32,000 bases of DNA from an uncultured Opitutales bacterium (GTDB lineage Bacteria > Verrucomicrobiota > Verrucomicrobiia > Opitutales > Intestinicryptomonadaceae), in the NCBI GenBank assembly GCA_934660865.1, contig CAKUIA010000012.1:55241-87240 (forward strand), given 5' to 3'. The translations under genes and the position numbers were made by a program. Shown here piece by piece: positions 1,917-18,411 of this stretch; position 1 is the first letter of the stretch; each line of letters begins with the position of its first letter. The notes under the pieces are model-generated. The model made no database searches. It worked only from the letters and a program-made list of their open reading frames with translations, and was not told the origin of the DNA.

Positions 1917-1930
1917 TGCGTAAAAACGCA
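1917..1930. promoter_or_regulatory. Third, imperfect copy of the motif (TGCGTAAAAACGCA), 20 nt upstream of the ATPase ATG
   Basis: It has the same right flank (gaaatttaaagta) and the same spacing to the ATG as copy 1, with one mismatch in the right half-site. Confidence 0.4.
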
Positions 1931-1950
1931 GAAATTTAAAGTAAATAAAA

Positions 1951-3207: not shown

Positions 3208-3252
3208 CTGATTATATCATCTTCCCCCTTCAGATTTTAGTCTACATTTTTC

Positions 3253-3288
3253 GGGCGGCGGGGTATTTATTCCCTGCCGCCTTTTTTT
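3253..3288 (+). terminator. Rho-independent terminator after the ATPase gene
   Basis: Stem gggcggcgggg (3253..3263) pairs with ccctgccgcc (3272..3281) with one mismatch, followed by ttttttt. Confidence 0.6.
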
Positions 3289-3334
3289 GGGTAAATTTTT
3301 ACTCAATAATACATAGCTTTGTAAGCTATTTTTT

Positions 3335-3865
3335 ATGAGTAAAGAATATTACACATTAAGAGAACTAATAGACAATAACGGCGGACTTTTGAATGACGAA
3401 AGTCTGCATTTTATAGCCAAACACGGCTTGCTGTGCGAGTTGTTGCTTTGCGACAATCGGCTTGGGGAGGAGGCGTTCTTGGCGTTGCCCGCGATGGGAT
3501 ATGCGCCAAACAGCAACGAGCTTGCGTGTTATCTGTATATGCGCGACGACCTCGATTGCAAAATGATGTCGGCTCTAAACCTGTCCGACGCAGTGATGTT
3601 AGAGTTGCTGTGTCTTGACCTCTCGCTTTTGCCTGCGGTAAGGGCGAAGGGATTATTTGGGCGAATCGACGAAGGGCAATTTGCGAGGATTTTCATCAAC
3701 GCGTATCGCGCGGCGGAAAGCACTGAGCTTGTTGCCGAGTTGCAAAAGCGCGGATGGGCTTTTATGGACGCGGTAATTTTGGACTGCCCTGAGATAATCC
3801 CCACACTCGAACGAATGGGTGCGGATTTAGAGCAGTCGCGCTATGCCGAGTATTTTTCGAAGTAA
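3335..3865 (+). CDS. Hypothetical protein (176 aa, acidic, Leu-rich), first gene of a three-gene module
   Basis: ATG-initiated ORF with backbone-like GC. It lies 27 nt upstream of the ATPase gene on the same strand. I recognise no motif. Confidence 0.6.
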   Translation: MSKEYYTLRELIDNNGGLLNDESLHFIAKHGLLCELLLCDNRLGEEAFLALPAMGYAPNSNELACYLYMRDDLDCKMMSALNLSDAVMLELLCLDLSLLPAVRAKGLFGRIDEGQFARIFINAYRAAESTELVAELQKRGWAFMDAVILDCPEIIPTLERMGADLEQSRYAEYFSK

Positions 3866-3892
3866 ATTTTGTGAGTAGGAGAGATTTTCGAG

Positions 3893-5359
3893 ATGAAAGA
3901 AAAAATAGTTTCTACAATCAAAACGAGCGCGGGAGAGTTGCAACTTTCAGAAGACGCGCTTTGCAAACACACGATATTTATCGGCAGCACGGGCAGCGGA
4001 AAGACAACTTCGCTCAACGTGCTTCTTCGAGATATCATCGGCTACAATGCGAATGACGAAATGCAAAAAGTCGGCTTGCTCGTCTTCGATTTAAAGGGCG
4101 ACAACACGCTTTTTAAAATCCGAAAGTTGGCTAAGGAATGTGGACGCGAGGCTGACGTTATCGACTATTGCGCCGACTCGCAGTTTTACTTCGACCCGCT
4201 CGGCGGCTTGGACAGTTTCCGCAATATTCCCGAATACGTCGAACGGCTTTACAACATCTTCCCATTCCAGAGTAGCGAGGTCTATTGGGAGCAGTCGTTA
4301 AGAAAGCGGTTCAAGACCGTGCTGACTTACTGCTTATTCCGACACGGAAGGATGACGTTTAAACTGTTCTTGGAAGAGCTGCGAGAGTTTACAACGGCGG
4401 ATTCGACAAACGGTAATTGGCGCGGCGTGATGGATTCTATTGAGATGGTTTTGCGCGCGCTCGAAAAGAAGTCGAAAGGCACAGTCGCCGAATCATATGA
4501 AATCCTACGCGAACTTTTAGAGAACACGCGGGCGGGCGTTAACGAATGGCAACATCTTGACCCGCGAACCAAGAGCAACGAGCTAAGCACGATGACGAAC
4601 CTGGTTTCGAACTTCGGCAACCCAATTACTAATGGGCACATTTTCGAGGGGAAGAGCAAGATGCGCTTGGACGTTGGCAAACTTGTGTGTGCAGGAAAGA
4701 TTGTCGTGGCTTCGTTCGACGGCATCTCCAACAGGCAGTCGGCGGCGGCAATTTGCAAGCTCTTAAAGAGCGATGCCTACGGACACATTCAGACACGTCA
4801 AAATCCAAGCCGGCTTGTTGGTATTGTAATGGACGAGTTCCCGCTTGTGGCAACAGATGGCGAAAACATCTCGGGAGACGGCTTCAATATGCAGACAATT
4901 CGCTCAAAGCGCGGCTTTGTGATTGCCGCCACACAGGGACTTGTCGGGCTTGATTTGGCAATCGGAGAACCCGCCCGTCGCAGGCTTATGACGAACTTCA
5001 ACAACGTCTTCGTCTTCAAAAGCAACGAGCGCGAGGTGCTCGAACTGGTTGAAGATTTGAACTTCTGTGAACCGCCGCAGAACAAAATCGGGTTCGGTAG
5101 TAATACCATTTGCGAAAAACGCGAACCTATAACGCTTGCCAATGCTCCCGCGGGCTACGCCGCGATAAAACTTGCCGACGGCTTCCAGTCAAAGGGTCTC
5201 GTTGAAATCGAGCGTCTCTATGTTGATACACCGCCAATGCCCGAAAATAGGCGCGAATCGGAAATCGACAAATGCGCAAAGGTTCTCCGAACCTACTTAA
5301 AGACAATCGATTTTAACGCCTGCCTTAACGGTAAATTTTTAGACAAAGACACTTTATAA
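3893..5359 (+). CDS. Soluble P-loop NTPase of the FtsK/HerA/TraG-TraD (coupling-protein-like) superfamily
   Basis: Walker A is IFIGSTGSGKTTSLN near the N-terminus and Walker B is VGIVMDEFPLVA. These are followed by RSKRGFVIAATQG...G, which resembles the TraG/TraD C-terminal and HerA-DUF87 pattern. There is no N-terminal hydrophobic segment. An AGGAG lies upstream of the ATG. Confidence 0.6.
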   Translation: MKEKIVSTIKTSAGELQLSEDALCKHTIFIGSTGSGKTTSLNVLLRDIIGYNANDEMQKVGLLVFDLKGDNTLFKIRKLAKECGREADVIDYCADSQFYFDPLGGLDSFRNIPEYVERLYNIFPFQSSEVYWEQSLRKRFKTVLTYCLFRHGRMTFKLFLEELREFTTADSTNGNWRGVMDSIEMVLRALEKKSKGTVAESYEILRELLENTRAGVNEWQHLDPRTKSNELSTMTNLVSNFGNPITNGHIFEGKSKMRLDVGKLVCAGKIVVASFDGISNRQSAAAICKLLKSDAYGHIQTRQNPSRLVGIVMDEFPLVATDGENISGDGFNMQTIRSKRGFVIAATQGLVGLDLAIGEPARRRLMTNFNNVFVFKSNEREVLELVEDLNFCEPPQNKIGFGSNTICEKREPITLANAPAGYAAIKLADGFQSKGLVEIERLYVDTPPMPENRRESEIDKCAKVLRTYLKTIDFNACLNGKFLDKDTL

Positions 5360-5537
5360 TCTATGAAATCCCATCATTCAAAATCATTTTCGCGATACCT
5401 GCGCGAAATCAAAATCAGATACAAACGCGAATCGGCAAAACGAAGCTTTTTCGTAGCTTGCGAACATTGCGACCTGCCGATTCTCCACACGTCAAGGTTG
5501 CTTGCCAACAAACAACTCGCATACGAAAGGAACTAAA

Positions 5538-5972
5538 ATGGACGAAAAACTTTTTCACGCACACAAAGACACACACAACCCGAACAACCCTTATCCCGAG
5601 TTTGTTCGCCAAGCGGCAAAACGCACGAAAGTACCGATTGAGCTTTTGACGCGCAAAAAATATTGCGGGAAATCCGCTAACGGCAAAGGAGACAATCACC
5701 ATATCTTGGATAAGTCGCTTTTCCCCAAGAAAGGAACGCCTACTATCAGCGTTTCAAAAGAAAAACACTTCGAACTTCAATGCCTGCTCGCCCAAGCCAC
5801 AACCCTACAAGGCTATATGGACTACGAACAAGCCCTGAAAGCCGAATGCCCCGAAATCCAAAACCCCATCGCCCAAATCTACTGGCAACGCATAGAATCC
5901 CTCCATACCCCGTGGCGAATTAGGCTGACAGTGTGGGCAAAGAAGATTTTTAGGGTTTACGTTGTTATATGA
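5538..5972 (+). CDS. Hypothetical protein (144 aa from ATG 5538; the ORF track starts at 5502)
   Basis: The ATG at 5538 is preceded by aaagga. It is on the same strand as the ATPase gene and has backbone-like GC. No motif recognised. Confidence 0.5.
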   Translation: MDEKLFHAHKDTHNPNNPYPEFVRQAAKRTKVPIELLTRKKYCGKSANGKGDNHHILDKSLFPKKGTPTISVSKEKHFELQCLLAQATTLQGYMDYEQALKAECPEIQNPIAQIYWQRIESLHTPWRIRLTVWAKKIFRVYVVI

Positions 5973-6029
5973 TGGCGGGTGGGGGAATAGAGAAAATTAC
6001 AGATAGGATATTGGGATGCCTTAAATGTA

Positions 6030-6362
6030 TTATTCGGAGTACAATTTTTCTCCTAGCGCCTCTATTTTCGCCATATTTGACTCTAGGATATTAAGTATTT
6101 CTTCTTTTGTTTGCACATTTAAAGCCATTTTATAATCTTCGTTATTGGGTAAGAGAATTCCCAATTCGCTAAAAGCATCTAAGATTCGCATCGATCTACC
6201 AAACCCGATATCAGCGGCTCTCATTGCCACACTAGAAGTACAATAACCTTTCTTTAACATTGCGTCGATAATTTTCATTAATACTGTTTTTTTTGCTTTT
6301 TTCATTTTACGCCCAATTGATTGTGATTTCCTATGCATACCGAAACTCAACCATGGTTTCAA
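6030..6362 (-). CDS. Small standalone winged-helix protein resembling the FtsK gamma domain
   Basis: The segment CTSSVAMRAADIGFGRSMRILDAFSELGILLP follows the FtsK-gamma pattern (E. coli [30 protein letters not shown]), with a conserved R, the I-G-[YF]-x-R-x-x-R-I core and G-I-[VL]. The gene is AT-rich and divergent from the helicase operon. Confidence 0.5.
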   Translation of the reverse strand: MKPWLSFGMHRKSQSIGRKMKKAKKTVLMKIIDAMLKKGYCTSSVAMRAADIGFGRSMRILDAFSELGILLPNNEDYKMALNVQTKEEILNILESNMAKIEALGEKLYSE

Positions 6363-6394
6363 GATAATTTATTGACAAAATTATAAAAAATATC

Positions 6395-6415
6395 ATCCTG
6401 AATAGGCGTCAGGAT
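6395..6415. promoter_or_regulatory. Perfect 7-bp inverted repeat (atcctga-N7-tcaggat) in the divergent intergenic region; candidate operator
   Basis: It sits between the start of the minus-strand wHTH gene (6362) and the ATG at 6425. A TTGACA hexamer lies at 6373..6378. Confidence 0.4.
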
Positions 6416-6424
6416 TACCGTTGC

Positions 6425-6724
6425 ATGGAAACAATAAACATTCAAAACATAGAAGACAAATGGAAAAATTTTATTTGTGAAGAAAGCGATGTTCCCATCA
6501 TAGGATTACTGCCGTTTCAAGGCCACGAAAAAAAACTTTTCTTAAATTGTATTGAAAATATTCCCGTTGCGACCGAGAAACGTATCGTAGCGGAGTTATG
6601 CAACTTATTAGACAAATATCCATTTTCGACATCAATTTGGATTGCAACAATCGCTGCTGAAACATACGCAAATGGTGATTTTGGTCTGGGTTTTCCGATG
6701 GACTTGGGCTATCCCAAACACTAA
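6425..6724 (+). CDS. 99-aa hypothetical protein; either a separate small gene or the detached N-terminus of the following 1045-aa ORF
   Basis: ATG-initiated and AT-rich. Its last 46 nt overlap the open upstream extension (from 6679) of the next ORF's frame. Confidence 0.5.
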   Translation: METINIQNIEDKWKNFICEESDVPIIGLLPFQGHEKKLFLNCIENIPVATEKRIVAELCNLLDKYPFSTSIWIATIAAETYANGDFGLGFPMDLGYPKH

Positions 6725-6762
6725 CAGACCCCATAGCGAGAAAGGAATTATATTGTAAGTTT

Positions 6763-9700
6763 TTGGAAATATGCAATATATGCGACTTTGTCCAATATTA
6801 TCCTAAAAAGCAAAAAAGAACGAGTTTTGTTTCAGCATTCCTGTTTTACGCGGGATTCCCAATTTGTTATAGCAATAAATTAGCCGAAGCCATTTTGCAA
6901 CTACACAAGCGAAATCTGCTACCTCATCCAGAAGATGATGAAGCCGCAGAAATATTATTAGATTTGCTTCTTGATTATTTTAAAAACTCTCCGATACAAA
7001 TGCTGAGAAGGTCTTTACTATCTGATGCGGGTATTCTCGTTGTGAAAACCGCATTAGATGTGTTGTATACAGGAGACTTTAAAAAGGTAAACATAAAGTT
7101 TGGCGATGCATTAAAAAAAGCGTTTGATAACGTTCCTCAATCGAAATTATTTTCTAAAAAAAATTATGCTGCAGCATCATTGAGACTAACGCATGATTTA
7201 ACGGGATTTGAAATATATTGCCCGAAGCAGTATGACTTAGATGAAGATTCATCATTTGGATGGAAAATAAACGATGATATTTTTAGGCGATCAAACAGGG
7301 ATGTCTTCATATATCAAATTTCGGAGACTCAAAACGAGGTTAAAGTAGAACCGATTGGACTTAGATGCCACCATATTCAAACGTTTAATATTGAAAAATT
7401 AAGAAGTCCAAAAAATGAAATATTGTTCTTTGACAGAAATTCATTAAAATTAAAAGGACGTCCCATACTATTAGATACAGATCAAACCGAAATAGCACCA
7501 GGGACCTATTGGATTTTAACACCACACGACATATCATGTCATGACAGTATAGAAAATATCTCCATTTCAAAAGCAAATCTTTTGTCAATTGATGTACTAC
7601 CCGGAAAGATTATAGAACTATTTAGGGGCAACGAAAAATGTATCACTATAAAATCTAAGGCGATACCATCTATCTTTCTTTCTGATTCAAATAAAATTAT
7701 TCGAACTTATAACGGAGATCCAATCTTATTTGGGCCTTCAATTTCTATCGATGTATGGGACACATCGGATTTGTCAAAATACGATGTGGTTGTAAGCTAT
7801 AATGGGCGAGAAGAGCGAATAGATATTCCTCATGTAGATGCAAAAAATGAGTGGTTTTTTGAAAGCATAGACATATCCAGTGTGTTGGATGACTCACGCG
7901 ATATCCTCTCGGAAATTACGGTTTCGCTTGAAAAGAATGCTCGAACTAAGGTAAAAAAGGAATTTTTATATTTGCCAAATGTAACATCTTGGGATGGAAC
8001 AAATTTAGTGTTTTCAAAGCGTGTATCAAACTTACAAAGAAGGGGCTCTATCGGTTATGACATTAAAGATAATAAAGTCACGGTCTTAGAAACACTGTCC
8101 CCTTTTAGAAAACTTGCTTTTTGTGTTGCGGGAGAAGAAAGAGTTTTGATTTTTAAAAACAGTGGAATATTTCTTCAACAAATAAAAAGTAAACCCGGAC
8201 AAAGGGATTATTCTGAATATATAGATGTAGGAAGCGAAGTCTTTTCTTCAAAAAACGAGTTTACTTCTATAAGGATATGGAATTTTACAAATCAGGATCG
8301 GAAGATTTTTAAATGCAATGAGTATGCATATGATATAAATAGCGAAAGTTACATTGATATATCATTACAAAATCTTTTGGAAAGATTCCCAGCAGGAGGA
8401 GTGGTCGATCTTTCTGTTCCTGATGAAAGACCAATTAATGCATTTAAGTTTAGAGCTGCCCCGGAAACTATCGATTACAAACACGCCTTAAATATTGATA
8501 CCTTTTATTTTAAATCCCCAATAAAAAAATTTAGAGTAAAAATCATTAATCTGATAGATGGTGAGTCGATAGTTTTCCCTGGAAATGTTTTTCATGAAGA
8601 GTCTGCGATTGAATTAAAGGCGGATAAAATTCCTACTATTGTTGGAAGAAATTATTCACCAACCAATAATACACTAGCGGATGCCTTTTCTATCGAAATC
8701 CCGAAAGAAAATTGGTCTGAAGGGATATGGGCCGTATTTGTAGAAGTCGCCTTTTCTGAATTTGGAGTTTTCGAACCGCTTAACATGCCAACAACGAAAT
8801 CCGAACCTAATAGGTATGTTAAAATTATTCGCAGTTATTGCATAGAAAACGAGAACTCAATTTTAAGTCTTGTCCAAAGAACGATAGACTCCGATCAGAA
8901 TAGTAAGATATCTCTTCCACAAAATCCACAAAACATTATTCCAAATCTCATACAACTTTTGTTAAGGATTAATAAGCTTGGGATTGAATCAAATCCAGGC
9001 ATTCGGAAGTGGAGAGATGCAATAGAACGCAAAACGGTTAACTATTTAAAATATGACATTAAGGCTAACTGTAATTTAGACAACGTTACTCCTCTTGTTG
9101 CACTATCCTCAAAATCTCCGTCTAGATATTTAACAGCCATGGAAATTATGGCTGCCCCTGCGCGATATTACAAGTCTATAGCCGACAATATCAACGAACA
9201 AATCTTCTCGCTAAAAATCTGCGGAGATTTAGATGATTTTACATCAAATTATGAAGCTTTCGCATGCGGATTGTTATCTTACGAATTCATTGGTTGCTAT
9301 AAAAACATTTCCGAAGAAACAGAAGATTTTATCTCATTTGATATAAGGAAATTTTACGATAGCTATAAAATATTAGAACATCGCGTCGAATCAGATTTTA
9401 ATATCTATGAAAAATGTGATATATTGTCAAAATCGCATTGGCGCAGAGCTTGTGAATCTTCTTTTTCGCGAAGGTATCAAGCAGGATCAGATACCAAATC
9501 AAACTTTTCGTTCGTAAATTCATTTACTTCGCGGTCTAGTGATTTCTTAGAAAAGCTCCATAAAATAGCCTCTTCAGCTCCTATCCCAGAAACCATTTGG
9601 GATAACATTCTTCCAGAATACGAGGGAACATATCACATAGACAAAAATATCATAAATTTTGCATCTTTATATGCATTTGCCTGTCGGTTGGCGGGAGCAC

Positions 9701-9900
9701 AATTTATTTCCTTTTCAGACTGGACAGATGTATTATGTGCTGAAGGAATTTTCAAGAACATAGAGGATAAAGAATGCGTCTTGAAATGCATGTTTTTTAC
9801 GTACAAAGAGATTTTTGCTTTCTTTATAATATTTTGGGAGACGATAATTAAAACATACAAAAACACGACTAAAAATGAACCCGATAGAACTGTCATATAA
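6763..9900 (+). CDS. Large orphan protein (1045 aa), DruH-like by position and size only
   Basis: It is an uninterrupted 3.1-kb ORF in an AT-rich cassette, and its stop overlaps the start of the helicase gene by 26 nt. The only upstream start candidate is TTG at 6763; the first in-frame ATG is about 240 nt further in. I see no catalytic or nucleotide-binding motif. Confidence that it is a real CDS is high; confidence in the DruH assignment is low. Confidence 0.45.
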   Translation: MEICNICDFVQYYPKKQKRTSFVSAFLFYAGFPICYSNKLAEAILQLHKRNLLPHPEDDEAAEILLDLLLDYFKNSPIQMLRRSLLSDAGILVVKTALDVLYTGDFKKVNIKFGDALKKAFDNVPQSKLFSKKNYAAASLRLTHDLTGFEIYCPKQYDLDEDSSFGWKINDDIFRRSNRDVFIYQISETQNEVKVEPIGLRCHHIQTFNIEKLRSPKNEILFFDRNSLKLKGRPILLDTDQTEIAPGTYWILTPHDISCHDSIENISISKANLLSIDVLPGKIIELFRGNEKCITIKSKAIPSIFLSDSNKIIRTYNGDPILFGPSISIDVWDTSDLSKYDVVVSYNGREERIDIPHVDAKNEWFFESIDISSVLDDSRDILSEITVSLEKNARTKVKKEFLYLPNVTSWDGTNLVFSKRVSNLQRRGSIGYDIKDNKVTVLETLSPFRKLAFCVAGEERVLIFKNSGIFLQQIKSKPGQRDYSEYIDVGSEVFSSKNEFTSIRIWNFTNQDRKIFKCNEYAYDINSESYIDISLQNLLERFPAGGVVDLSVPDERPINAFKFRAAPETIDYKHALNIDTFYFKSPIKKFRVKIINLIDGESIVFPGNVFHEESAIELKADKIPTIVGRNYSPTNNTLADAFSIEIPKENWSEGIWAVFVEVAFSEFGVFEPLNMPTTKSEPNRYVKIIRSYCIENENSILSLVQRTIDSDQNSKISLPQNPQNIIPNLIQLLLRINKLGIESNPGIRKWRDAIERKTVNYLKYDIKANCNLDNVTPLVALSSKSPSRYLTAMEIMAAPARYYKSIADNINEQIFSLKICGDLDDFTSNYEAFACGLLSYEFIGCYKNISEETEDFISFDIRKFYDSYKILEHRVESDFNIYEKCDILSKSHWRRACESSFSRRYQAGSDTKSNFSFVNSFTSRSSDFLEKLHKIASSAPIPETIWDNILPEYEGTYHIDKNIINFASLYAFACRLAGAQFISFSDWTDVLCAEGIFKNIEDKECVLKCMFFTYKEIFAFFIIFWETIIKTYKNTTKNEPDRTVI

Positions 9901-12900
9901 AATAAAAGATTCCCTTAGCCGGTATCTACAAGCTGTCTTACCAGTTTCCGGTAAATATCCAAAACTTTCTTCTGCAATAAATGAAGTATTGAATGAACCG
10001 GATCGTCTATTAAGAGGCCCATATGTTGAATCATTGAGCGATTTTGAAAAAGGGGCTTCTCTTAAAGATCTTGTCGAGGAAGGTATCTTAAATGAAGAAT
10101 TGGCAAGTTTGAAAACATCTCAACCTTCAATATACAACCGTGCATTGCATAAGCATCAAGAAGTCGCTTTACGCTCAATTGTTAATGGCAAAAATGTCAT
10201 TGTTTCGACCGGGACTGGCAGTGGAAAGACCGAGTGTTTTCTATACCCTATATTAAATTCACTCTTAAACGATGATAACCTTGATGAGCCAGGAGTACGA
10301 ACAATACTAATATATCCTCTAAATGCACTAGCTAATGATCAACTCTACAAACGCATAGTCCCATTTTTTGTAGGAGACTTTGCGAAAATGGATATAAAAG
10401 TTGGACGTTATACAGGATTAACCCAAAAAGGAGGTAGAACTGAAGAGGCAGAAAAGATATTGAGCGCGGAACCTTATTTCCGAGAAAAATTGGGCTGGGA
10501 ATCAATTCCTGAGAATTGGTTGCTTACGAGAGATGAAATGCTGAAATCTCCGCCGCATATTCTTATTACGAATTATGCAATGCTTGAACACTTATTGCTT
10601 TTCCCCAAGAATGCACCTCTTTTCTTCAATTCAAAATTAAAATTCATTGTATTAGACGAAGTTCATACATATACAGGAGCGCAAGCTTCAGAAGTCGCAT
10701 TTTTGATTCGAAAGTTAAAACAAAGACTTAATGTAACGAAAGTGCAATGTGTAGGAACTAGCGCAAGCTTTGGAGATGAGTCAAAAGACAAAGATGTTTT
10801 AAGCTTTGCATCTGACCTCTTTGGAGAACCATTTTCTATGGTGATTAGAGGAAAACGAGAACCGCACGTTTTGCTAAGAACTCCTACAAAACATCCTTTT
10901 TCTTTAACCGCGAAAGAATGGATAGAATGCGCGAAAAATATAGACAATATCGCACCAAATGTAATTCTAGAAAAATATGCAGATAATATAGAAATGCGAA
11001 AGCTTTCTGATATTTTCCAATCTAACAACGGGAATCCTCTCAGCTTCAAAGCATTGGCATACCAGATATTTGGAGAAGACGATAATTCTTATGAAGCTCT
11101 TTCTGCAATGATAACAATCGGAATAAAAGCGAGAAAGTCGGAGGCAGATTTCCCCCTTTTGCCCGGACGATATCACATATTTTTGAACGGAATAGACAAT
11201 ATTACTATAACCTTATCTGACAAAACAGATGAACATTTTAACGATATAAAAATCGGGAAACAATTTTTGGATGAAATCGGAATTCGTTTTTCTTTACTTA
11301 CATGCAGAAAGTGTGGACAACCGTATATAGAAGGCTTTTTGGTAGGAAACAAGCTATTACCGTATCCACGTTCTTCCTCTGAGAAAGCTTTACGTCGTGT
11401 CTTTTTACTAGATAATAACAGCCATGTCGAAGACGAAGACGATTCTGTGGGCGAATCAAATGTTGAAAGCGTTGTAATAAATCCTATTACAGGGGAATAT
11501 CGATGCAAAACAGGGGTAACTCTTTTTGAAGTCAAACTAAAGAAAGATGATGAGTTGGGCCGAAGCTTTCTTCATAAATGCCCGGCTTGCGGAGGAACAT
11601 CCGGAACGAATGTTGATGTCATAACCAAATATTCCCCCGGCGATTTCATGTTTTCAACAGTAGCCAGCGATTTGTTGTATCAAAGCCTGCAAAAAAAGAA
11701 AGGTCACGAAGCTGAAATTGGAGAGGGGCGGAAGCTTATTGTTTTTTCTGATAACAGACAAGATGCCGGTCAGTTTGCCTATTCATTCCAAAAAACCAGC
11801 GAAGATTTACTTCTTCGTAGGCTCATGATGAAATCCATTTTAAATAACAACGATAATCTATCCTTCAACACGCTAAGAAATGAAGTATGTAAAATATTAG
11901 GGAATAAATACCCATTCCTTGATGATAAAGGCGACGTGTATCAAAATTCTAGCGATGCATCTGCATTCCTTTTGGGTAAGATTGCGAGTGAATTTTGTCT
12001 CCCTACGGGAAGAAGAAATTCATTAGAAGCACTAGGACTTGTTAAAATTTCAACTTGCAAATCATATCTAGATAAAGCTAATAATGCATTTAAAGACGCA
12101 CTACCTTCAGCTCTTTTTAAATATAGTTCAGAGATACTAGAAATACTGATAGAATCTATTCGTCGTAACCGTTGCATATCGGACCTTTCGCAAGTGAGAA
12201 TGGATGATAAACATATTTGGGGTGATTCATTTTCCCATGATGGGTTCCGTTTTTCATTAGTTCCTGAGAAAGATAAAAAATATAGGTTTTCGTGGCTCCC
12301 AAGCTATGAAACCGGGAAAATAAGACATAATAGACGTAGCTTTTTTCTAAGAAAGATTCTAGACAATTCATTTTCAAATAATGATGTTATAGATATTTTG
12401 AAAGCAGCTTATTCTTCTCTTAAGGAAGCTGACATAATAGTATCTTCATCTAGAGGAAATGTCTTAAACGTAGATAGTATAATGTTATCCTCTGGAATGG
12501 AAGCAAAACTCTATATATGCGATAAATGTGGAAGGAAATTTTTCTACAATATAAGCGACAAATGCCCGTCTTACAAGTGTACTGGGAGCTTAAGAGAGCT
12601 TTCGGATGAAGAAAGGCAACAAGAATATGAAAACAAGCACTATATGAGGATGTTTCTAGCTAAGGACACAGAATATTCGAGTAAAGTTGTACGAGAACAT
12701 ACTGCAGCGATAAATAATGATATAAGAGAAAAAATAGAACAAGATTTTAGAAAGGGTAAAATCAATGTATTGAGTTGTTCAACTACCATGGAACTAGGTG
12801 TGGATATTGGAGAATTGGAATCCGTTGTTTGCCGAAATGTTCCGCCCACAATTCAAAATTATCAACAACGTACCGGTCGAGCTGGACGTAGAGCTCAAGG

Positions 12901-14578
12901 TGCTCCCATATCAGTTACCGTTGCTAGAAACCGTAATTTTGACCAGACAGAGTTTAATGAAGTAGAACATTACTTATCTCAAACTCCATCGACCCCGTTT
13001 GTACATTTGCTAAATAAGAAGTTATTCGAACGGCATCAATTCTCTATTATTCTTTCTGGGTGGCTGAAGACGTTGTTAAAGGACAAAAATAGTTCTCCAT
13101 CGTTAAAAGATTTCTTTGGTGAATCGTTTACAAAAGAAGAGGAAAACAAGTTTATAACCACTTTGAACGATTGGCTTTCTCTCCCTGGGAATGATTCCCT
13201 AAGTAAAGCAATTCGACTGTCGGAGTCGTTACCTGGAGAATTATCAAAAACAGAAGTTGAGATGAAAGAAACTTTTGGCGGCAAAATAATGGAGGCTGCA
13301 GCATGGTACGGCGAAAGATGGAGATACTATGATGAAAAGACCCGTGAATGTGCAAAACTTAGCAAATTTAAAACTGCCGCATACTGGGAACACATGAAAG
13401 AAAAATGGAGCGAACAGTTGTTAATAGAACAATTCCCAAAGCTTGGGTTAATACCAAGTTATACATTCCCTGTAAATAATATCCAACTTGAAGTGTTAAC
13501 GGGAGAGAGCGGTGATAGGAATAAAAACCCATGGGACAGAGAAATTCAGTTGAATCGAGATGCACGATTAGGAATTTCAGAATATGTACCAGGAGCCAGA
13601 GTTATTGCGGGTGGAAGAATGTGGGAGTCTTATGGAGTTGGTCATTACCCGAAACACTTTATGGCTACACAGCTATATTTCTTGTGCCCTGAGTGTAATA
13701 ATGTTGAAGTTTATCAATCTTTGGATGACGTTCCAACCAAATGTAGGGCATGCGGAGCACATATAGAAAAAACAAAAATCAGGGCATTTATTGAACCGAA
13801 AAGTTTTGTCACATCAGCAGAAAAGCCTAATGGAGAAACCCCAGATTTAGTCCGCTTGAAACCTCCACCTTCTCAAGAATCTAGGTTATTAGGCGGAGCG
13901 GCAGACGATGCCTTTACCTCAACTAAGATATCCGATATAACTTGGGCTTATCAGAATTCCATAGAGGGGAAGATGTTTATCGTCAACAAAGGATATGGTG
14001 AAGGATATATCCGATGTGGATGTGGGTATGCCAAAGCTGTAAAGCGAGGTCAATTACAAAAAATAATGAAAGATAAGCACAAAACTCCCTATGGGGAACA
14101 TTGTAAAAAACCTTTTTGGGAAAACAAAGGGAAACCGGAAGATTTTGCCCATGTGTATAATACCGATACGCTTCAAATACGTTTCAACAGAACGCTGCCT
14201 CCGCCTCCGCCAGAGTTAACAGATGAAGAGAAATCACAATGGACACACTCAATGTGCGTAACATTGGTTGAAGCCATTCGACTTGGCACAATACGGTTGA
14301 TAAATATAGATCAAAGAGAGCTTAGTGGCACATATAGACTTCATGCAGGAATTCCTGAGGTTATATTGTACGATAGTACTCCAGGCGGAGCTGGATACTG
14401 TACAATGTTACAATCATGCGATATTCAATCCTTATTGGATGCTGCATGTTTTAAATTAGAATGCAAAAATGAATGCTCTAATTCTTGCCGGTCATGTTTA
14501 CAATCATACGACAACCAAATCTTATGGGATTTCTTAAGAAGAAAACCTATTTTGAAATGGTTAAAAGAATTTAAATGA
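9875..14578 (+). CDS. druE: Giant superfamily-2 DEAH helicase with multiple zinc ribbons and a DUF1998-like C-terminal domain (Druantia DruE-like)
   Basis: Helicase motifs are motif I VSTGTGSGKTECF, Ia LIYPLNALANDQ, II VLDEVHTY, III GTSAS, V LSCSTTMELGVDIG and VI QRTGRAGRR. CxxC pairs include CRKCG, CPACGG, CDKCG..CPSYKC and CPECN..CRACG. The C-terminus has YDSTPGGAGY followed by CKNECSNSCRSCL, as in DUF1998/MrfA-type Zn domains. The size of 1567 aa is about twice that of MrfA-type helicases. Confidence 0.65.
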   Translation: MNPIELSYKIKDSLSRYLQAVLPVSGKYPKLSSAINEVLNEPDRLLRGPYVESLSDFEKGASLKDLVEEGILNEELASLKTSQPSIYNRALHKHQEVALRSIVNGKNVIVSTGTGSGKTECFLYPILNSLLNDDNLDEPGVRTILIYPLNALANDQLYKRIVPFFVGDFAKMDIKVGRYTGLTQKGGRTEEAEKILSAEPYFREKLGWESIPENWLLTRDEMLKSPPHILITNYAMLEHLLLFPKNAPLFFNSKLKFIVLDEVHTYTGAQASEVAFLIRKLKQRLNVTKVQCVGTSASFGDESKDKDVLSFASDLFGEPFSMVIRGKREPHVLLRTPTKHPFSLTAKEWIECAKNIDNIAPNVILEKYADNIEMRKLSDIFQSNNGNPLSFKALAYQIFGEDDNSYEALSAMITIGIKARKSEADFPLLPGRYHIFLNGIDNITITLSDKTDEHFNDIKIGKQFLDEIGIRFSLLTCRKCGQPYIEGFLVGNKLLPYPRSSSEKALRRVFLLDNNSHVEDEDDSVGESNVESVVINPITGEYRCKTGVTLFEVKLKKDDELGRSFLHKCPACGGTSGTNVDVITKYSPGDFMFSTVASDLLYQSLQKKKGHEAEIGEGRKLIVFSDNRQDAGQFAYSFQKTSEDLLLRRLMMKSILNNNDNLSFNTLRNEVCKILGNKYPFLDDKGDVYQNSSDASAFLLGKIASEFCLPTGRRNSLEALGLVKISTCKSYLDKANNAFKDALPSALFKYSSEILEILIESIRRNRCISDLSQVRMDDKHIWGDSFSHDGFRFSLVPEKDKKYRFSWLPSYETGKIRHNRRSFFLRKILDNSFSNNDVIDILKAAYSSLKEADIIVSSSRGNVLNVDSIMLSSGMEAKLYICDKCGRKFFYNISDKCPSYKCTGSLRELSDEERQQEYENKHYMRMFLAKDTEYSSKVVREHTAAINNDIREKIEQDFRKGKINVLSCSTTMELGVDIGELESVVCRNVPPTIQNYQQRTGRAGRRAQGAPISVTVARNRNFDQTEFNEVEHYLSQTPSTPFVHLLNKKLFERHQFSIILSGWLKTLLKDKNSSPSLKDFFGESFTKEEENKFITTLNDWLSLPGNDSLSKAIRLSESLPGELSKTEVEMKETFGGKIMEAAAWYGERWRYYDEKTRECAKLSKFKTAAYWEHMKEKWSEQLLIEQFPKLGLIPSYTFPVNNIQLEVLTGESGDRNKNPWDREIQLNRDARLGISEYVPGARVIAGGRMWESYGVGHYPKHFMATQLYFLCPECNNVEVYQSLDDVPTKCRACGAHIEKTKIRAFIEPKSFVTSAEKPNGETPDLVRLKPPPSQESRLLGGAADDAFTSTKISDITWAYQNSIEGKMFIVNKGYGEGYIRCGCGYAKAVKRGQLQKIMKDKHKTPYGEHCKKPFWENKGKPEDFAHVYNTDTLQIRFNRTLPPPPPELTDEEKSQWTHSMCVTLVEAIRLGTIRLINIDQRELSGTYRLHAGIPEVILYDSTPGGAGYCTMLQSCDIQSLLDAACFKLECKNECSNSCRSCLQSYDNQILWDFLRRKPILKWLKEFK

Positions 14579-14665
14579 ATGGTTTTATAATTCATAGAAA
14601 AAATAAAACTTCGTCAGATTCAGTAAGAAACTTTATATCTATACGTTACAGAATTTGAAATTTAC

Positions 14666-14697
14666 CAACAGTTGGACAGCTTTCTGCCCAACTGTTG
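14666..14697. terminator. Bidirectional terminator-like hairpin between the convergent helicase and relaxase genes
   Basis: A perfect 10-bp stem, caacagttgg (14666..14675) paired with ccaactgttg (14688..14697), with a 12-nt loop and T-rich flanks. Confidence 0.6.
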
Positions 14698-14737
14698 TAT
14701 TTATGTAGGTAGATGTTTCGCTTTATCTTGAGTTCTC

Positions 14738-16969
14738 TTACAAATCGATGTCATAGCTGATTGTTTTGCAGGGAGGTTCTTCAGGAGGTTCTTCAGGAGG
14801 TTCTGGGGTGGTTGGAGGTATGGACTTGGTCGGAGCGGGATTGTCTGTAGGGCGAGTATTTTGTTGCGGCTTGGGGTAGTTCGTTATGGGCGATGGGGTG
14901 ATTTTTGGTTGAGGGTTAGGCGCCGGACGGGTGTATTGTGGCTGCGGTTGAAGCGGTTGTTTCGGTTGCGGGGTTCGGTGTGAGGGTATTGCGGTGGCTG
15001 TTTGGCGTAGTTGCTCTCTATCATATATAGAGGGGCTGGTAGAAATTGGTCTTGTGGGGTGGGTATTGTTTTGCGCGGGCGATGAACTTTTATTCATTTT
15101 CGCGGGACGGTTTACAATCTGCCGTTCTCGTGCGGCGGGTTGTTGTGAACGCTGCGGCTGTGTATGGATTGGGGTATGCGGCTGTTGTTGCTTTGACGGC
15201 ACGTCTGTTTGCGTTGGAGATGTATTATTGAGGCGCGATGTTGGTATTACTACCTTTCTTAGTTGAGATTGTGCCTCAATCGGCGTAAGAGTCGTCTTTG
15301 TCTGGATTGGTGTTTTGATCTTATCGGGTTTGGAGAGATGCGGTAACGGTTGATGTTGCGATTGTGTCCGTTGGGGTAACGGGATTGTTTGGTCGGATTG
15401 TGTTCTTGCCGAAGCTTGCGGGAGGGTATTTGTAATTTGATTTTTTACTGTAATTTTCTTCAACCCGAACGAGCGTAGTAGTGGCATCGCGTAGTCTTCT
15501 TTGCGGGGCAATGTTGTTTGGTCGTTCGAAATCAAAACAATCTTTGAACTTGTCGCGTTTACGGCTTTTATGAGTTTAAGGAAGTATTCGCAGCCGATAA
15601 AATCTGCGTTATCTAATATAAAGATTGAAGGAGATTGAATTTTGCCGATTTCGGCAAAGCGCGTCGGGGCGACATTAAAATTCTTGCGAACACGTATGCG
15701 ACTGGCGTTTAAATAGACAATCGGCACATTATTGGCATCCGCGAAGTGGTTCAGATTTTTAGTGAACGACGCCCCGCCGTCGTCGTTAACTTCAAAGATG
15801 GCACTCTGTTCGGAATACATATTTTGGTATCGGGCATCGGGGATTTCAATATCGGAAGAAAACGAGTCAAACGTGCGCGCTGAGGCTTTGGCAAATTCTT
15901 TTCGTAATTCTGTGTGCAAAGGCGGTTGATTGTCCTCCACCCCGCATAATCGGGCCGCCCAGTTTGCGATTTTGCAAAAAAGGTTTTGGGGCGTTTGTAG
16001 GACTTCTTGTTTGGTATTAATACCCTTCGGCGATGGATGTTTTTGCGGCGTTTTACCAATCATTCCTCGGGCAACCTTTGTTATCTGTTTGCCGCAGGCA
16101 ATTTTTATCTCTTTGCGAATGCGTCTTAACGCCGCTTTTGTCATACTGTCTGGGCGTTTGGGCTCTTTAAAGAGATTGGCGATTCTTGCGATTGCGCGTT
16201 TACCGTATTTCTTGTTCGGATTTTTTGCCTGTAATTCTTTTGCTTTGCTTTTTATCTGCTTGCTCCGCTTGCTGAACCTATCGCACAACGACTGTGGAAT
16301 TCCCGCGATGACCACTTCACCTTTTGTATCCAACGATGCTTCTATGCCTTTGCCTTTCAGGCGATCAACAAGCTTTTGGCGGTAAATCAATGTTGCTATT
16401 TGCGACTCGTTGTAGATTTCCAGCGGGTCCAAGGCTTTGTATTTTTGTTCGTTTTGGTCGTAAGTTAGATTAAAAATTTCGTAATGGCTGTGTAGTTGCG
16501 GGTCGTCCGCCCTGCTTAAAAGGTGCGTGATTTTCACGCCAAGAAAACTTCCCGTAGGTATGGAATAATTCGCCCCGTTCTTCCGAATTCTTACCATCGC
16601 CTTTTCTTCAATCCAACGCATGGCTTCGTCCGCCGCCTCTTCGTGGATTGTCATGAAATCGTTGTCTTTGCCGAGCATGTACACGGCAAGAATGGAAAAC
16701 GCTTTGGGTGCTGAGATGCACGCGCTGAAAATTTGGCGTTTGCATTCCCGCGGTCTTAACTTTGCTTTCGTAAGCGGGTGCTTGTTATCCAAGACGGATT
16801 TGAAGACATCCGCGGGGGAGCATTTTTCTATGCCAAGCTTCCCTGCAAGCTTGCCGAAAAGCTTCGCGTTTGTGCCGTTGTTCTTGTCGTAGCAGAAGTA
16901 CCCGAGCAGATCGTTTTCAAAATATCGAACGACCTGCTCCTTATTCATAAATTTTGATATTGTGAACAT
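14738..16969 (-). CDS. MOBF (TrwC/TraI-type) conjugative relaxase with a degenerate helicase remnant and a long Pro/Gln/Thr-rich tail
   Basis: The N-terminal domain follows the TrwC pattern: FSACISAPKAFSILA (TFSAPKSVS-like) and THLLSRADDPQLHSHYEIFNLT (histidine-triad region H..SR..DPqLHtH..v.N). IFILDNADFIG...KIVLISNDQT looks like decayed Walker B and GD-Q motifs of the AAA_30 helicase part. The last ~230 aa are low-complexity P/Q/T. Confidence 0.8.
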   Translation of the reverse strand: MFTISKFMNKEQVVRYFENDLLGYFCYDKNNGTNAKLFGKLAGKLGIEKCSPADVFKSVLDNKHPLTKAKLRPRECKRQIFSACISAPKAFSILAVYMLGKDNDFMTIHEEAADEAMRWIEEKAMVRIRKNGANYSIPTGSFLGVKITHLLSRADDPQLHSHYEIFNLTYDQNEQKYKALDPLEIYNESQIATLIYRQKLVDRLKGKGIEASLDTKGEVVIAGIPQSLCDRFSKRSKQIKSKAKELQAKNPNKKYGKRAIARIANLFKEPKRPDSMTKAALRRIRKEIKIACGKQITKVARGMIGKTPQKHPSPKGINTKQEVLQTPQNLFCKIANWAARLCGVEDNQPPLHTELRKEFAKASARTFDSFSSDIEIPDARYQNMYSEQSAIFEVNDDGGASFTKNLNHFADANNVPIVYLNASRIRVRKNFNVAPTRFAEIGKIQSPSIFILDNADFIGCEYFLKLIKAVNATSSKIVLISNDQTTLPRKEDYAMPLLRSFGLKKITVKNQITNTLPQASARTQSDQTIPLPQRTQSQHQPLPHLSKPDKIKTPIQTKTTLTPIEAQSQLRKVVIPTSRLNNTSPTQTDVPSKQQQPHTPIHTQPQRSQQPAARERQIVNRPAKMNKSSSPAQNNTHPTRPISTSPSIYDREQLRQTATAIPSHRTPQPKQPLQPQPQYTRPAPNPQPKITPSPITNYPKPQQNTRPTDNPAPTKSIPPTTPEPPEEPPEEPPCKTISYDIDL
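14772..14804. repeat. Tandem 12-nt repeat (ggaggttcttca, about 2.7 copies) encoding PPEEPPEEPPEE at the relaxase C-terminus
   Basis: Read directly from the sequence at 14772..14804. Confidence 0.8.
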
Positions 16970-17016
16970 GCCTTATGAGTTTAGGCATTTCTTTTTTAAA
17001 CAAACTTTGCGGTACT

Positions 17017-17158
17017 GACGGCTACGCCGTCTTAAATATCACGGGGTTTTTCTCGCGGGGATGCGTTGCATTCCCCGCTCGATGGGGACGCTACGCGTCC
17101 ATTAATTATCTACTTGTTTCGGAGTGCTACACTAACCCCTCCGACTTCCGTCGGAGGG
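17017..17158. other. Candidate oriT: a cluster of four short hairpins just upstream of the relaxase gene
   Basis: The hairpins are gacggc-tac-gccgtc (17017..17031), ggggatgc..gcattcccc (17057..17076, imperfect), ggacgc-tac-gcgtcc (17086..17100) and ccctccgac-ttcc-gtcggaggg (17137..17158, perfect 9 bp). They lie in the divergent region between the relaxase gene and the 17345 gene. Confidence 0.45.
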
Positions 17159-17344
17159 TAGAGCCCGCAGTTGTTGCCGTAATTTGGCTCGCCTAAATCA
17201 GGGCGAAATACCCCCTCCAGAAACCTTCATGCCCTTCCGTTTCCCTGCTGATTTTACCGAAACGATCGTTCCGCTAACTACCCCCCCCTGAAACTTTTTT
17301 GGGAATTTTCGCAAAGCCGAAGCCTTTTTCCTATAATAAGGACT

Positions 17345-18409
17345 ATGAATCGTAACCCTAACAATAAAAAAGGTATCCCGCAACAAATTGCGGGAAGTGT
17401 AGAAAACATAAAACACGCGATTGTGGAAACCCGCAATCACGTCTTAAATGCGGAGAAATTCGTAGAGAAAGGAAAAAGTTGCATCTTTGACTTGTGCATA
17501 GAACTTGTCTTGCTTGCCCGTTCGGCGAACAAAGCCCCCACTTATCGGTGGTTGTGGAAGGAGGTGTTTTGTCTTGATCAGAAAGAGGTCTGTCCCATAA
17601 AGCCAGACATATACAAAATCGCAAAGTCGCTCGGAGAAGTTTGCGTAAAACTTCAATCGCCGCGAAAGGAAAACTTACGCAATGTTGGCTGCTCACGTTG
17701 GCAGACAATACGAAAGGCGTTGAGCCGATATCCTAAAGACAAACGCGAAGTCATTTTGAATTCGTTGGCATCCGCCTCTTTTGACGAATGCGGGAAGGCA
17801 TTGGCACAAAAGGTCAACGCTACCGCAGCCGCCGCAAATATACAACCCGTGCAAAAAGAGAAAAGTAAACTCCAAAAGGTGAGGGATTCTTTTAACACAA
17901 CACTAAAAACTATAACGGACGATACCCAGTTAAAAGCTTTTGAGCTGTATATAGCTAATTTCAATGTTCCACAGTCTGCGATGCAAAACGATACTGCCGA
18001 TGAGGAGGGAAAAGCCACCGCTGCGCAACCGCAAGAACCGTCGCCCGAAAAATCGGCTACGCCGAATCAAACGCCAATGGAGGAAGACTTGGGTATTTCA
18101 ATACCAAACCCCATGAACGAAACCCCTACCATAAACACCCCCGCTACTACTATTCAACCGCAAGAAAACCCAACAGAGCCGTTTCCAATTCTTGACGGGC
18201 TTAGCGACCGTGAAAAGGCGGAAAAGATTCGGGTGTGGCTAACGAGACTTGAAGGGCGCGAAGCATACAAGCGAGATGCAAATGGCTATGAAATGAAAAT
18301 CGCGTGGGCCGTCGCAAAAGAAACGATACCCCTACAAGAAGTTGCCACACTTAAAACCCACGAAGACCTTCGCAAATTGGCGGAAAATTTTTACCCTGAA
18401 AAACGTTAG
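17345..18409 (+). CDS. Hypothetical protein (354 aa) with a central Pro/Thr/Gln-rich linker; first gene of the recombinase operon
   Basis: ATG ORF divergent from the relaxase gene. The next ORF starts 2 nt after its stop. No motif recognised. Confidence 0.6.
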   Translation: MNRNPNNKKGIPQQIAGSVENIKHAIVETRNHVLNAEKFVEKGKSCIFDLCIELVLLARSANKAPTYRWLWKEVFCLDQKEVCPIKPDIYKIAKSLGEVCVKLQSPRKENLRNVGCSRWQTIRKALSRYPKDKREVILNSLASASFDECGKALAQKVNATAAAANIQPVQKEKSKLQKVRDSFNTTLKTITDDTQLKAFELYIANFNVPQSAMQNDTADEEGKATAAQPQEPSPEKSATPNQTPMEEDLGISIPNPMNETPTINTPATTIQPQENPTEPFPILDGLSDREKAEKIRVWLTRLEGREAYKRDANGYEMKIAWAVAKETIPLQEVATLKTHEDLRKLAENFYPEKR

Positions 18410-18411
18410 AC

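What the first reader, a model, noticed from the sequence alone, without database searches (positions are those of the whole stretch)
6030..14578. AT-rich cassette with a giant DEAH-DUF1998 helicase and an overlapping 1045-aa orphan: Druantia type III-like or an undescribed relative
The 1567-aa protein (9875..14578) has a complete SF2 motif set (GTGSGKT, DEVH, GTSAS, QRTGRAGRR), at least five CxxC zinc-ribbon pairs and a DUF1998-like end (TPGGAGY, then CKNECSNSCRSC). Among the defence systems I know, this giant fused helicase-DUF1998 architecture best matches Druantia DruE. The upstream gene (6763..9900) overlaps it by 26 nt and encodes 1045 aa with no recognisable motif, which matches the two-gene DruH-DruE layout of type III. 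Two parts are not in the published two-gene description: a 99-aa ORF, and a divergently transcribed FtsK-gamma-like wHTH gene with a perfect inverted repeat in the shared promoter region. The cassette sits inside a mobilizable island next to other accessory ATPases, a typical defence-island setting. The Druantia mechanism is essentially unknown, so a divergent, regulator-equipped variant would be informative.
Basis: partly seen in the sequence, partly recalled or inferred. Interest (0 to 1): 0.8.

Follow-up and report, generated by a model that had tools for sequence, protein, structure and literature searches.

The report
Divergent, frameshifted Druantia type III-like cassette
This is a two-gene Druantia type III-like anti-phage cassette, a DruE helicase with no nuclease domain plus a DruH-shaped partner that no current DruH model recognises, carried on a mobilizable island, and in this copy a one-base deletion breaks the partner gene.

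Summary
The 1567-aa protein (9875..14578) is a genuine DruE. It matches PADLOC DruE1 (2.5e-178) and DruE3 (5.7e-172) and has Pfam DEAD, Helicase_C and MZB/DUF1998 domains. It ends just after MZB, so it lacks the PLD nuclease of E. coli-type DruE.

The "99-aa ORF" and the "1045-aa orphan" are one gene, 6425..9900. A 94%-identical contig encodes an intact 1158-aa protein. The window has TTTT at 6680-6683 where that contig has TTTTT.

The partner has no sequence match to any DruH model (PADLOC, NCBIfam, precomputed Pfam, solved DruH 9tud, hhalign). It nevertheless has DruH's length, its position and overlap upstream of druE, and its predicted build: a helical N-domain, about six Ig-like domains and a helical C-domain. 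Its roughly 100-cluster family sat directly upstream of a DruE in every locus with enough downstream DNA. It diverges much faster than DruE, as published for DruH.

The wHTH gene and the 7-bp inverted repeats are not conserved parts of the system.

The cassette is cargo of a ~20-kb element at tRNA-Glu with a serine recombinase, a relaxase and a coupling ATPase.

Verdict: a new variant of a known kind, with moderate interest. Four 2026 preprints and one 2026 paper (M. smegmatis system) have already described the type III mechanism.

The parts
6425..9900 (+). DruH-like partner gene. It would encode 1158 aa if one T were restored, and it is frameshifted in this window.
   Evidence: Homologues are 1143-1158 aa. 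The repaired translation is 94% identical to P0001 over its full length. The AF2 model of P0001 (pLDDT 84.3) has a helical domain at 1-245, about six beta-sandwich domains at 250-805 and a helical domain at 813-1150. There is no hit in PADLOC, Pfam, NCBIfam or PHROGs.
6680..6683 (+). Frameshift site: a T4 run where the intact relative L003 has T5.
   Evidence: DNA alignment A1. This is the only frame-breaking indel between 6425 and 14578 relative to L003. dN/dS against L003 is 0.19 upstream and 0.30 downstream of the site, so the gene has not decayed further.
6425..6724 (+). It is the N-terminal fragment of the partner (residues 1-86 plus an out-of-frame tail).
9875..14578 (+). druE: a YprA/MrfA-family SF2 helicase of 1567 aa with no C-terminal nuclease domain.
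   Evidence: PADLOC DruE1 2.5e-178 and DruE3 5.7e-172. Pfam DEAD 81.7 bits, Helicase_C 50.4 bits, and MZB 35.3 bits at residues 1467-1542. The DruE3 profile PDLC00037 is matched only up to position 1674 of 2055. The best PDB match is 9tu7 at 1.5e-73. YjiV_N (PF27116) is recorded on the 97%-identical L003 protein.
6030..6362 (-). Small divergently transcribed wHTH-like gene. It is a neighbour, not a conserved component.
   Evidence: FtsK_gamma E 4e-4, below the gathering score. It is present only in the near-identical L003, where a 1-nt indel at 6101 changes its frame. No wHTH-like ORF lies upstream in L004 and none is called in L001, L002, L005, L009, L011 or L015.
6363..6424 (.). Intergenic region with two perfect 7-bp inverted repeats (6364-6370/6378-6384 and 6395-6401/6409-6415).
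   Evidence: The repeats are short enough to arise by chance. The second is disrupted in L003. No sigma-70-like promoter was called here.
990..20914 (.). A ~20-kb integrative mobilizable element that carries the cassette as cargo.
   Evidence: An 86-nt direct repeat at 905-990 and 20914-20999, 84% identical. The right copy overlaps the 3' end of tRNA-Glu at 20993-21069(-). The element encodes a large serine recombinase at 18656..20683, a TrwC relaxase at 14738..16969, and a TraD/VirD4-like ATPase at 3893..5359.

Best explanation
The locus is a Druantia type III-like two-gene anti-phage system, carried as cargo on a ~20-kb integrative mobilizable element at tRNA-Glu.

Gene 2 is DruE, a 3'-to-5' SF2 helicase of the YprA/MrfA family with an MZB zinc domain. 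It belongs to a nuclease-free form.

Gene 1 (6425..9900) is a very divergent DruH-type partner. It has a helical N-domain, about six Ig-like domains and a helical C-domain.

The mechanism is inferred by analogy with solved type III systems. The partner would recognise or process phage DNA intermediates (ssDNA or 3' ends, possibly also phage proteins through its Ig-like domains) and recruit or activate DruE. DruE would then load at ssDNA-duplex junctions and unwind phage DNA, blocking replication. Because this DruE has no nuclease domain, any DNA cutting must come from the partner or from a host nuclease, or unwinding alone is enough.

In this window a 1-nt deletion in a T-run splits the partner gene. 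As sequenced, the system is probably inactive, unless the deletion is a sequencing error.
For: Shown here:
- DruE identity and domains.
- No nuclease region: the protein ends 25 aa after MZB, and DruE3 profile positions 1675-2055 are unmatched.
- The partner is a single 1158-aa gene in relatives.
- The partner family has 98 representative clusters, mostly 1115-1220 aa.
- Every locus with enough downstream DNA has an overlapping DruE next: L001-L006, L009-L012, L014, and L015 in Ralstonia solanacearum.
- The AF2 model of the partner shows helical 1-245, beta 252-804 and helical 813-1150. A control model of genuine E. coli DruH shows helical 1-268, beta 272-818 and helical 834-1095.
- Both models retrieve the same kind of PDB hits, including 9flp_A, 4pbx, 5lf5_A, 5lfu_A, 9fls_A and 8uin_A.
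- The partner diverges faster than DruE. Partner identity is 42, 23 and 16% where DruE identity is 60, 47 and 37%. dN/dS is 0.30 for the partner and 0.11-0.15 for DruE. In L014 versus L004, DruE is 94% and most of the partner 78.5% identical at the nucleotide level.
- Window DruE is only 23-34% identical to E. coli DruE, so by extrapolation the loss of detectable partner similarity would be expected.

From the literature:
[quoted passage not shown] It has no InterPro hits, and fold searches return ICAM/NCAM (10.64898/2026.05.13.724313; 10.64898/2026.05.12.722862).
- DruH is more divergent than DruE (PMC13192584).
- Type III-like DruE most often has no nuclease domain (10.1101/2025.09.15.676423).
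- A Mycolicibacterium smegmatis DruH (1132 aa) and DruE (1667 aa) pair, overlapping by 17 bp and with no nuclease domain reported in DruE, defends against phage (PMC13316683).
Against: - No sequence evidence links the partner to DruH. Seventeen family members gave no hit against PADLOC, which holds at least 11 DruH models (model count). NCBIfam gave none. No precomputed Pfam family is recorded on any family member whose record was listed, whereas genuine DruH carries PF27205 and PF27201.
- hhalign of the whole proteins gives probability 0.3%. The N-domains alone give only 7.5%, P 0.005.
- The solved DruH 9tud is not hit by the family profile.
- No direct structural superposition on a solved DruH was possible, because it is not in the fold library.
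- The partner gene is frameshifted here.
- Defence activity is untested.
- DruE scores about equally on DruE1 and DruE3 models, so its subtype is not settled.
Confidence: 0.75

Rival explanations
1. The partner is not a DruH homologue. It is an unrelated accessory protein that occupies the same operon position, which would make this a separate Druantia type with its own sensing logic.
For: Every sequence and profile test against DruH failed. The DruEs linked to this family score only 540-620 bits and about equally on DruE1 and DruE3 models, which suggests a clade of their own.
Against: The partner has the same length, the same upstream overlapping position and the same three-part predicted architecture as DruH, including a matching number of Ig-like domains. 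Genuine DruH proteins are themselves so divergent that E. coli DruH matches the solved DruH 9tud only across its N-domain. The co-divergence trend predicts that similarity would be undetectable.
Confidence: 0.12
2. The cassette in this genome is a dead remnant. The frameshift is real, so the cell makes only a truncated partner, or none, and the system no longer defends.
For: The window has T4 where L003 has T5, which creates a stop at 6722-6724. The downstream ORF would lack about 113 N-terminal residues. In P. aeruginosa DruH the N-domain residues R22, K28 and E64 are essential (10.64898/2026.05.13.724313). Split partner genes also occur in L014 and in the P0060 cluster. DruH expressed alone is reported to be toxic in M. 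smegmatis (PMC13316683), which could select for its loss.
Against: This is the only disabling change in 8.1 kb. Both genes show purifying selection relative to L003. A single-base homopolymer error is a common sequencing artefact. A low level of -1 slippage on U UUU could restore the frame (my inference).
Confidence: 0.4
3. The helicase pair serves DNA repair, or the transfer and maintenance of the mobile element, rather than phage defence.
For: DruE belongs to the YprA/MrfA family, which includes repair helicases (6znp YprA, 2.6e-25). The genes lie between a coupling ATPase and a relaxase.
Against: The same pair sits in unrelated elements: integrase with DUF3987/primase islands, an IS-flanked locus and a Ralstonia megaplasmid. 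This is the pattern of cargo, not of transfer machinery. The best matches are Druantia DruE models, far above the repair helicases.
Confidence: 0.05

Closest known systems
Druantia type III-A (E. coli YjiT/DruH with DruE; P. aeruginosa DruH-DruE)
   Same: It has two co-directional genes, with a ~1100-aa partner directly upstream of druE. DruE has the SF2 core, YjiV_N and MZB. The partner is predicted as a helical N-domain, Ig-like repeats and a helical C-domain. The partner evolves faster than DruE.
   Different: DruE here is 1567 aa and lacks the two C-terminal PLD nuclease domains (E. coli and PDB DruE are about 2100 aa). It is only 23-34% identical to E. coli DruE. The partner has no detectable sequence similarity to YjiT/DruH.
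Druantia type III-B / type III-like branch (Bell et al. 2025), including M. smegmatis MSMEG_1253-1254
   Same: It is a two-gene system with overlapping genes. DruE usually has no nuclease domain, and in M. smegmatis (1667 aa) the domains reported end with DUF1998. The partner is about 1130 aa. In M. smegmatis the system blocks phage DNA circularization and replication (PMC13316683).
   Different: Whether this DruE falls in that branch could not be tested, because no type III-B sequences were available to me. E. coli DruH matches 11 PADLOC DruH models, several only across its N-terminal ~250 residues, which suggests a shared N-domain across DruH lineages. This partner family matches none of them.
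MrfA/YprA repair helicase (PDB 6znp)
   Same: It shares the SF2 core and the MZB/DUF1998 zinc domain, and presumably 3'-to-5' polarity.
   Different: It is half the size, has no DruH-like partner and has a repair context. The match is weak compared with DruE models (2.6e-25 against 1e-178).
Druantia types I, II and IV
   Same: They share the DruE signature helicase. The DruE1 model gives the top PADLOC score.
   Different: No DruA-D, DruM/F/G or DruF/L homologue is present in the neighbourhood. Type IV is DruE with DruF and DruL (PMC8565338).

Membership tests
DruE (Druantia signature helicase, YprA/MrfA family) | SF2 helicase core with Walker A, DExH, motif III and motif VI | tested here: met
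   GTGSGKT, DEVH, GTSAS and QRTGRAGRR are in the translation. Pfam DEAD scores 81.7 bits and Helicase_C 50.4 bits, both above cut-off.
DruE (Druantia signature helicase, YprA/MrfA family) | MZB/DUF1998 zinc-binding domain after the helicase core | tested here: met
   PF09369 scores 35.3 bits (cut-off 24.2) at residues 1467-1542.
DruE (Druantia signature helicase, YprA/MrfA family) | Significant full-length match to DruE profile HMMs | tested here: met
   PADLOC DruE1 2.5e-178 covers residues 216-1558. DruE3 gives 5.7e-172 and 1.4e-125. The subtype is ambiguous.
DruE, type III-A form | C-terminal tandem PLD nuclease domains | tested here: not met
   The protein ends 25 residues after MZB. Positions 1675-2055 of DruE3 model PDLC00037 are unmatched.
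DruH (type III partner) | Sequence match to DruH/YjiT/STY4851 family models | tested here: not met
   PADLOC gave no hit even at E<=10, and none for 16 other family members. NCBIfam gave none. hhalign probability is 0.3%. hmmsearch in both directions gave nothing. The PDB DruH 9tud was not hit. As a positive control, E. coli YjiT hits 11 DruH models.
DruH (type III partner) | Protein of about 1100 aa encoded immediately upstream of druE and overlapping it | tested here: met
   The repaired product is 1158 aa and overlaps druE by 26 nt. The same arrangement is seen in the related loci checked.
DruH (type III partner) | N-terminal helical domain, six Ig-like domains, C-terminal helical domain | tested here: met
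   This rests on prediction only. The AF2 model of P0001 has pLDDT 84.3. Its layout matches the control model of E. coli DruH and the published cryo-EM descriptions. Foldseek returns tandem-Ig hits for both.
DruH (type III partner) | [quoted passage not shown] | not testable with these tools
DruH (type III partner) | ssDNA binding or 3'-5' exonuclease activity, and interaction with DruE | not testable with these tools
   This needs biochemistry.
Druantia type III system | Exactly two conserved genes, partner plus DruE | tested here: met
   No third gene is shared across L001-L006, L009-L012, L014 and L015. The wHTH gene occurs only in the near-identical L003.
Druantia type III system | Both genes intact | tested here: not met
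   The partner gene carries a 1-nt deletion at 6680-6683.
Druantia type III system | Protects against phage | not testable with these tools
   This needs plaque assays.
Druantia types I, II, IV | Presence of DruA-D, DruM/F/G or DruF/L | tested here: not met
   No PADLOC hits to these on any neighbouring ORF.

The most novel reading that the evidence does not exclude
The partner family (about 100 clusters at 50% identity) and its DruE clade may form a distinct, so far unmodelled Druantia subtype. The family is mostly metagenomic, but it also occurs in an Opitutales MAG and on a Ralstonia solanacearum megaplasmid. Current DefenseFinder- or PADLOC-type partner models would not detect it. In the short-DruE branch seen here, neither protein carries a recognisable nuclease. 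Defence would then rest on unwinding alone, on a cryptic nuclease in the DruH-like N-domain, or on a recruited host nuclease.
Probability: 0.35. Interest if true: 0.55.

Novelty: new variant of a known kind. Interest (0 to 1): 0.4.

Why it matters
Druantia III is one of the commonest defence systems, and its mechanism was worked out only in 2026, on E. coli, Pseudomonas and Mycolicibacterium examples. This locus shows that a whole family of DruH-shaped partners escapes every current DruH model, so Druantia is under-counted in surveys that rely on partner models. An HMM built from alignment A4 would recover these systems.

The published studies disagree on DruH. One finds ssDNA binding without nuclease activity, and two report nuclease activity. 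A pair whose DruE has no nuclease domain is a natural test case for which component does the damage.

The mosaic pattern also fits the idea that the partner is the fast-evolving sensor: DruE is conserved while the partner is swapped or diverges rapidly.

Full report
**1. What is in the sequence**

The cassette is AT-rich, with GC 0.34-0.40 across 6001-14000 against 0.44-0.51 in most 1-kb windows elsewhere.

The 1567-aa protein carries every motif quoted. It scores above Pfam thresholds for DEAD (81.7 bits), Helicase_C (50.4 bits) and MZB/DUF1998 (35.3 bits, residues 1467-1542).

Against PADLOC it is clearly a DruE: DruE1 PDLC00013 at 2.5e-178, and DruE3 PDLC00037 at 5.7e-172. The DruE2 and DruE4 models score lower.

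The closest solved structures are 9tu7, a 2108-aa DEAD/DEAH helicase (1.5e-73), then 9wae, then YprA 6znp.

The protein stops 25 residues after the MZB domain, and positions 1675-2055 of the DruE3 model are unmatched. It therefore lacks the C-terminal PLD nuclease region that E. coli-type DruE has (described in 10.1101/2025.09.15.676423 and PMC13192584).

**2. The '99-aa ORF' and the '1045-aa orphan' are one frameshifted gene**

The six closest homologues of the 1045-aa ORF are 1143-1158 aa long, and P0001 is 94% identical. P0001 begins with the sequence of the 99-aa ORF.

DNA alignment with its contig L003 (95% identical over 9.4 kb) shows GATTTTTGG in L003 and GATTTTGG in the window, a single missing T at 6680-6683. 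Restoring it gives a continuous 1158-aa product.

This is the only frame-breaking difference between 6425 and 14578. Both genes show purifying selection relative to L003: dN/dS is 0.19 and 0.30 for the two parts of the partner, and 0.11-0.15 for DruE. The lesion is therefore either recent or a homopolymer sequencing error.

As sequenced, translation from 6425 stops at 6724. The ORF starting at TTG 6763 would lack about 113 N-terminal residues.

**3. What the partner is**

It has no hit in PADLOC (even at E<=10), Pfam, NCBIfam or PHROGs.

As a positive control I recovered a full-length E. coli YjiT (1096 aa, L008) sitting upstream of a ~2100-aa DEAD/DEAH helicase. It hits 11 PADLOC DruH models, the best at 1828 bits. 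Its relatives carry Pfam PF27205 and PF27201 and the NCBI name 'STY4851/ECs_5259 family'. None of these labels is attached to the partner's homologues.

An exhaustive HMM search of 1.84 billion representatives found 98 clusters, mostly 1115-1220 aa. Sixteen of these, at all distances from the query, also have no PADLOC hit.

- Profile-profile comparison of the family (45 sequences) with an 18-sequence DruH alignment gave probability 0.3%.
- Domain-wise, only the N-domains gave a faint signal, with probability 7.5% and P 0.005.
- hmmsearch in both directions gave nothing.
- The solved 'DruH' 9tud_A is not hit by the family profile.

Genuine E. coli DruH itself matches 9tud only across its N-terminal 250 residues. 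DruH proteins are therefore extremely divergent even among themselves.

**4. Structure**

An AF2 model of P0001, built with the 45-sequence alignment, has mean pLDDT 84.3. It shows a helical domain at 1-245, a run of beta-sandwich domains at 252-804 (about six by strand grouping) and a helical domain at 813-1150.

The control model of E. coli DruH (pLDDT 77.6) has helices at 1-268, beta structure at 272-818 and helices at 834-1095.

[quoted passage not shown] Those studies found no InterPro hits and fold-search hits to ICAM/NCAM (10.64898/2026.05.13.724313; 10.64898/2026.05.12.722862).

**5. Conservation of the pair**

The partner gene is followed by an overlapping DruE gene in every related locus with enough downstream DNA:

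- L003: 94% partner identity, the same flanks, and an intact partner gene.
- L001, L002, L004, L005 and L006: 42% partner identity, DruE of 1512-1571 aa, in integrase plus DUF3987/primase islands.
- L014: an Opitutales MAG.
- L009 and L010: 23% partner identity, DruE of 1961 aa, next to an IS element.
- L011 and L012: 16% partner identity, DruE of 2012 aa.
- L015: the Ralstonia solanacearum SL3022 megaplasmid. An unannotated 1158-codon frame matches the family HMM at 1.9e-180 and overlaps a 1968-aa DruE.

All DruEs tested from these loci give the same PADLOC pattern, roughly equal DruE1 and DruE3 scores of 540-620 bits. That suggests a clade of their own.

The longer DruEs carry a conserved C-terminal extension with DPY, FHDR and LTGGI motifs and no Pfam hit. 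The window's branch lacks it.

The partner diverges much faster than DruE. Partner identity is 42, 23 and 16% where DruE identity is 60, 47 and 37%. Between L014 and L004, DruE plus the last ~220 nt of the partner are 94% identical at the nucleotide level, while the rest of the partner is 78.5%.

The window's DruE is only 23-34% identical to E. coli DruE in three segments. If the trend continues, an undetectable partner similarity is what an orthologous relationship would predict. PMC13192584 reports the same asymmetry for DruH and DruE.

**6. What is not part of the system**

- The wHTH gene (6030..6362) has only a sub-threshold FtsK_gamma match.
- It is found only in L003, where a 1-nt indel alters it. 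No wHTH-like ORF lies upstream in L004, and none is called in the other loci.
- The two perfect inverted repeats are 7 bp long with 7-nt spacers. That is about chance level for the 500 nt searched, by my rough estimate. One is disrupted in L003.
- No conserved third gene exists across the loci.

**7. Setting**

An 86-nt imperfect direct repeat lies at 905-990 and 20914-20999. Its right copy overlaps the 3' end of tRNA-Glu.

The repeats bracket a ~20-kb element. It encodes a large serine recombinase, a TrwC relaxase, a TraD/VirD4-like coupling ATPase and a PDC-S01 candidate ATPase. The cassette is cargo on this integrative mobilizable element.

The tyrosine integrase at 33-887 lies outside the left repeat.

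**8. Mechanism (inferred)**

This is inferred from solved type III systems:

- DruE is a dimeric 3'-to-5' helicase that loads at ssDNA-duplex junctions.
- DruH binds ssDNA in competition with ATP (10.64898/2026.05.12.722862). Other studies report nuclease activity: a 3'-5' exonuclease that recruits DruE through its C-terminal domain (10.64898/2026.05.13.724313), or a dimer-dependent nuclease most active on dsDNA (PMC13192584).
- A Mycolicibacterium pair whose DruE has no reported nuclease domain blocks phage DNA circularization and replication (PMC13316683).

Here the identity of DruE, its missing nuclease region, the partner's architecture and the gene coupling are shown. All activities are inferred.

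**9. Novelty and score**

The kind of system is known and now mechanistically studied, and type III-like DruEs without a nuclease domain have been described. What is new is a partner family invisible to all current DruH models, linked to a DruE clade that the PADLOC models do not directly represent.

I rate it a new variant of a known kind, with interest 0.4.

Noticed in passing
window 905-990 and 20914-20999; tRNA-Glu 20993-21069(-): An 86-nt imperfect direct repeat (84%) brackets a ~20-kb element. The right copy overlaps the 3' end of tRNA-Glu, and a large serine recombinase (18656..20683) sits just inside it. The tyrosine integrase at 33-887 lies outside the left repeat, which suggests a second element in tandem.
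   Followed up: partly
window 1038-1469 versus 1763-3200: There is a partial duplication at the left end of the island. Region 1170-1469 is a 90% copy of 2901-3200, the 3' end of the AAA_14/DUF4143 gene. Shorter repeats lie at 1038-1173 versus 1763-1972, and at 981-1011 versus 1581-1611.
   Followed up: no
window 1951-3207: The AAA_14/DUF4143 ATPase matches the PADLOC candidate defence family PDC-S01 at 2.6e-119. This is a second possible defence cargo on the same island.
   Followed up: no
L014 7986-11409; cluster of P0060 (P0232, P0233): The partner gene is also split in other assemblies: 523 + 599 aa in an Opitutales MAG, and 845 + 338 aa on one 7.7-kb contig. This could be recurrent inactivation or assembly error.
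   Followed up: partly
L014 versus L004: The conservation is mosaic. DruE plus the last ~220 nt of the partner gene are 94% identical at the nucleotide level, while the rest of the partner is 78.5%. This suggests exchange or rapid evolution of the partner's N-terminal and Ig-like parts.
   Followed up: partly
L015 3516-6989 (Ralstonia solanacearum SL3022 megaplasmid CP023017.1): An uninterrupted 1158-codon frame matches the partner family HMM at 1.9e-180. The plasmid gene table lists only a 470-aa hypothetical protein there. It overlaps a 1968-aa DruE.
   Followed up: partly
C-termini of DruE in L009, L011 and L015: The longer DruEs linked to this partner family have a ~340-400-aa extension after MZB. 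It carries conserved DPY, FHDR and LTGGI motifs and has no Pfam hit. It may be a divergent nuclease-like domain, and it is absent from the window's DruE.
   Followed up: partly
window 6101 (wHTH gene): A 1-nt indel relative to L003 changes the C-terminal reading frame of the wHTH gene. In L003 the gene is called as only 73 aa.
   Followed up: no
L011 596-901 and L012 458-763: A 101-aa ORF overlaps the start of the partner gene in the most distant loci. It has no Pfam hit.
   Followed up: no
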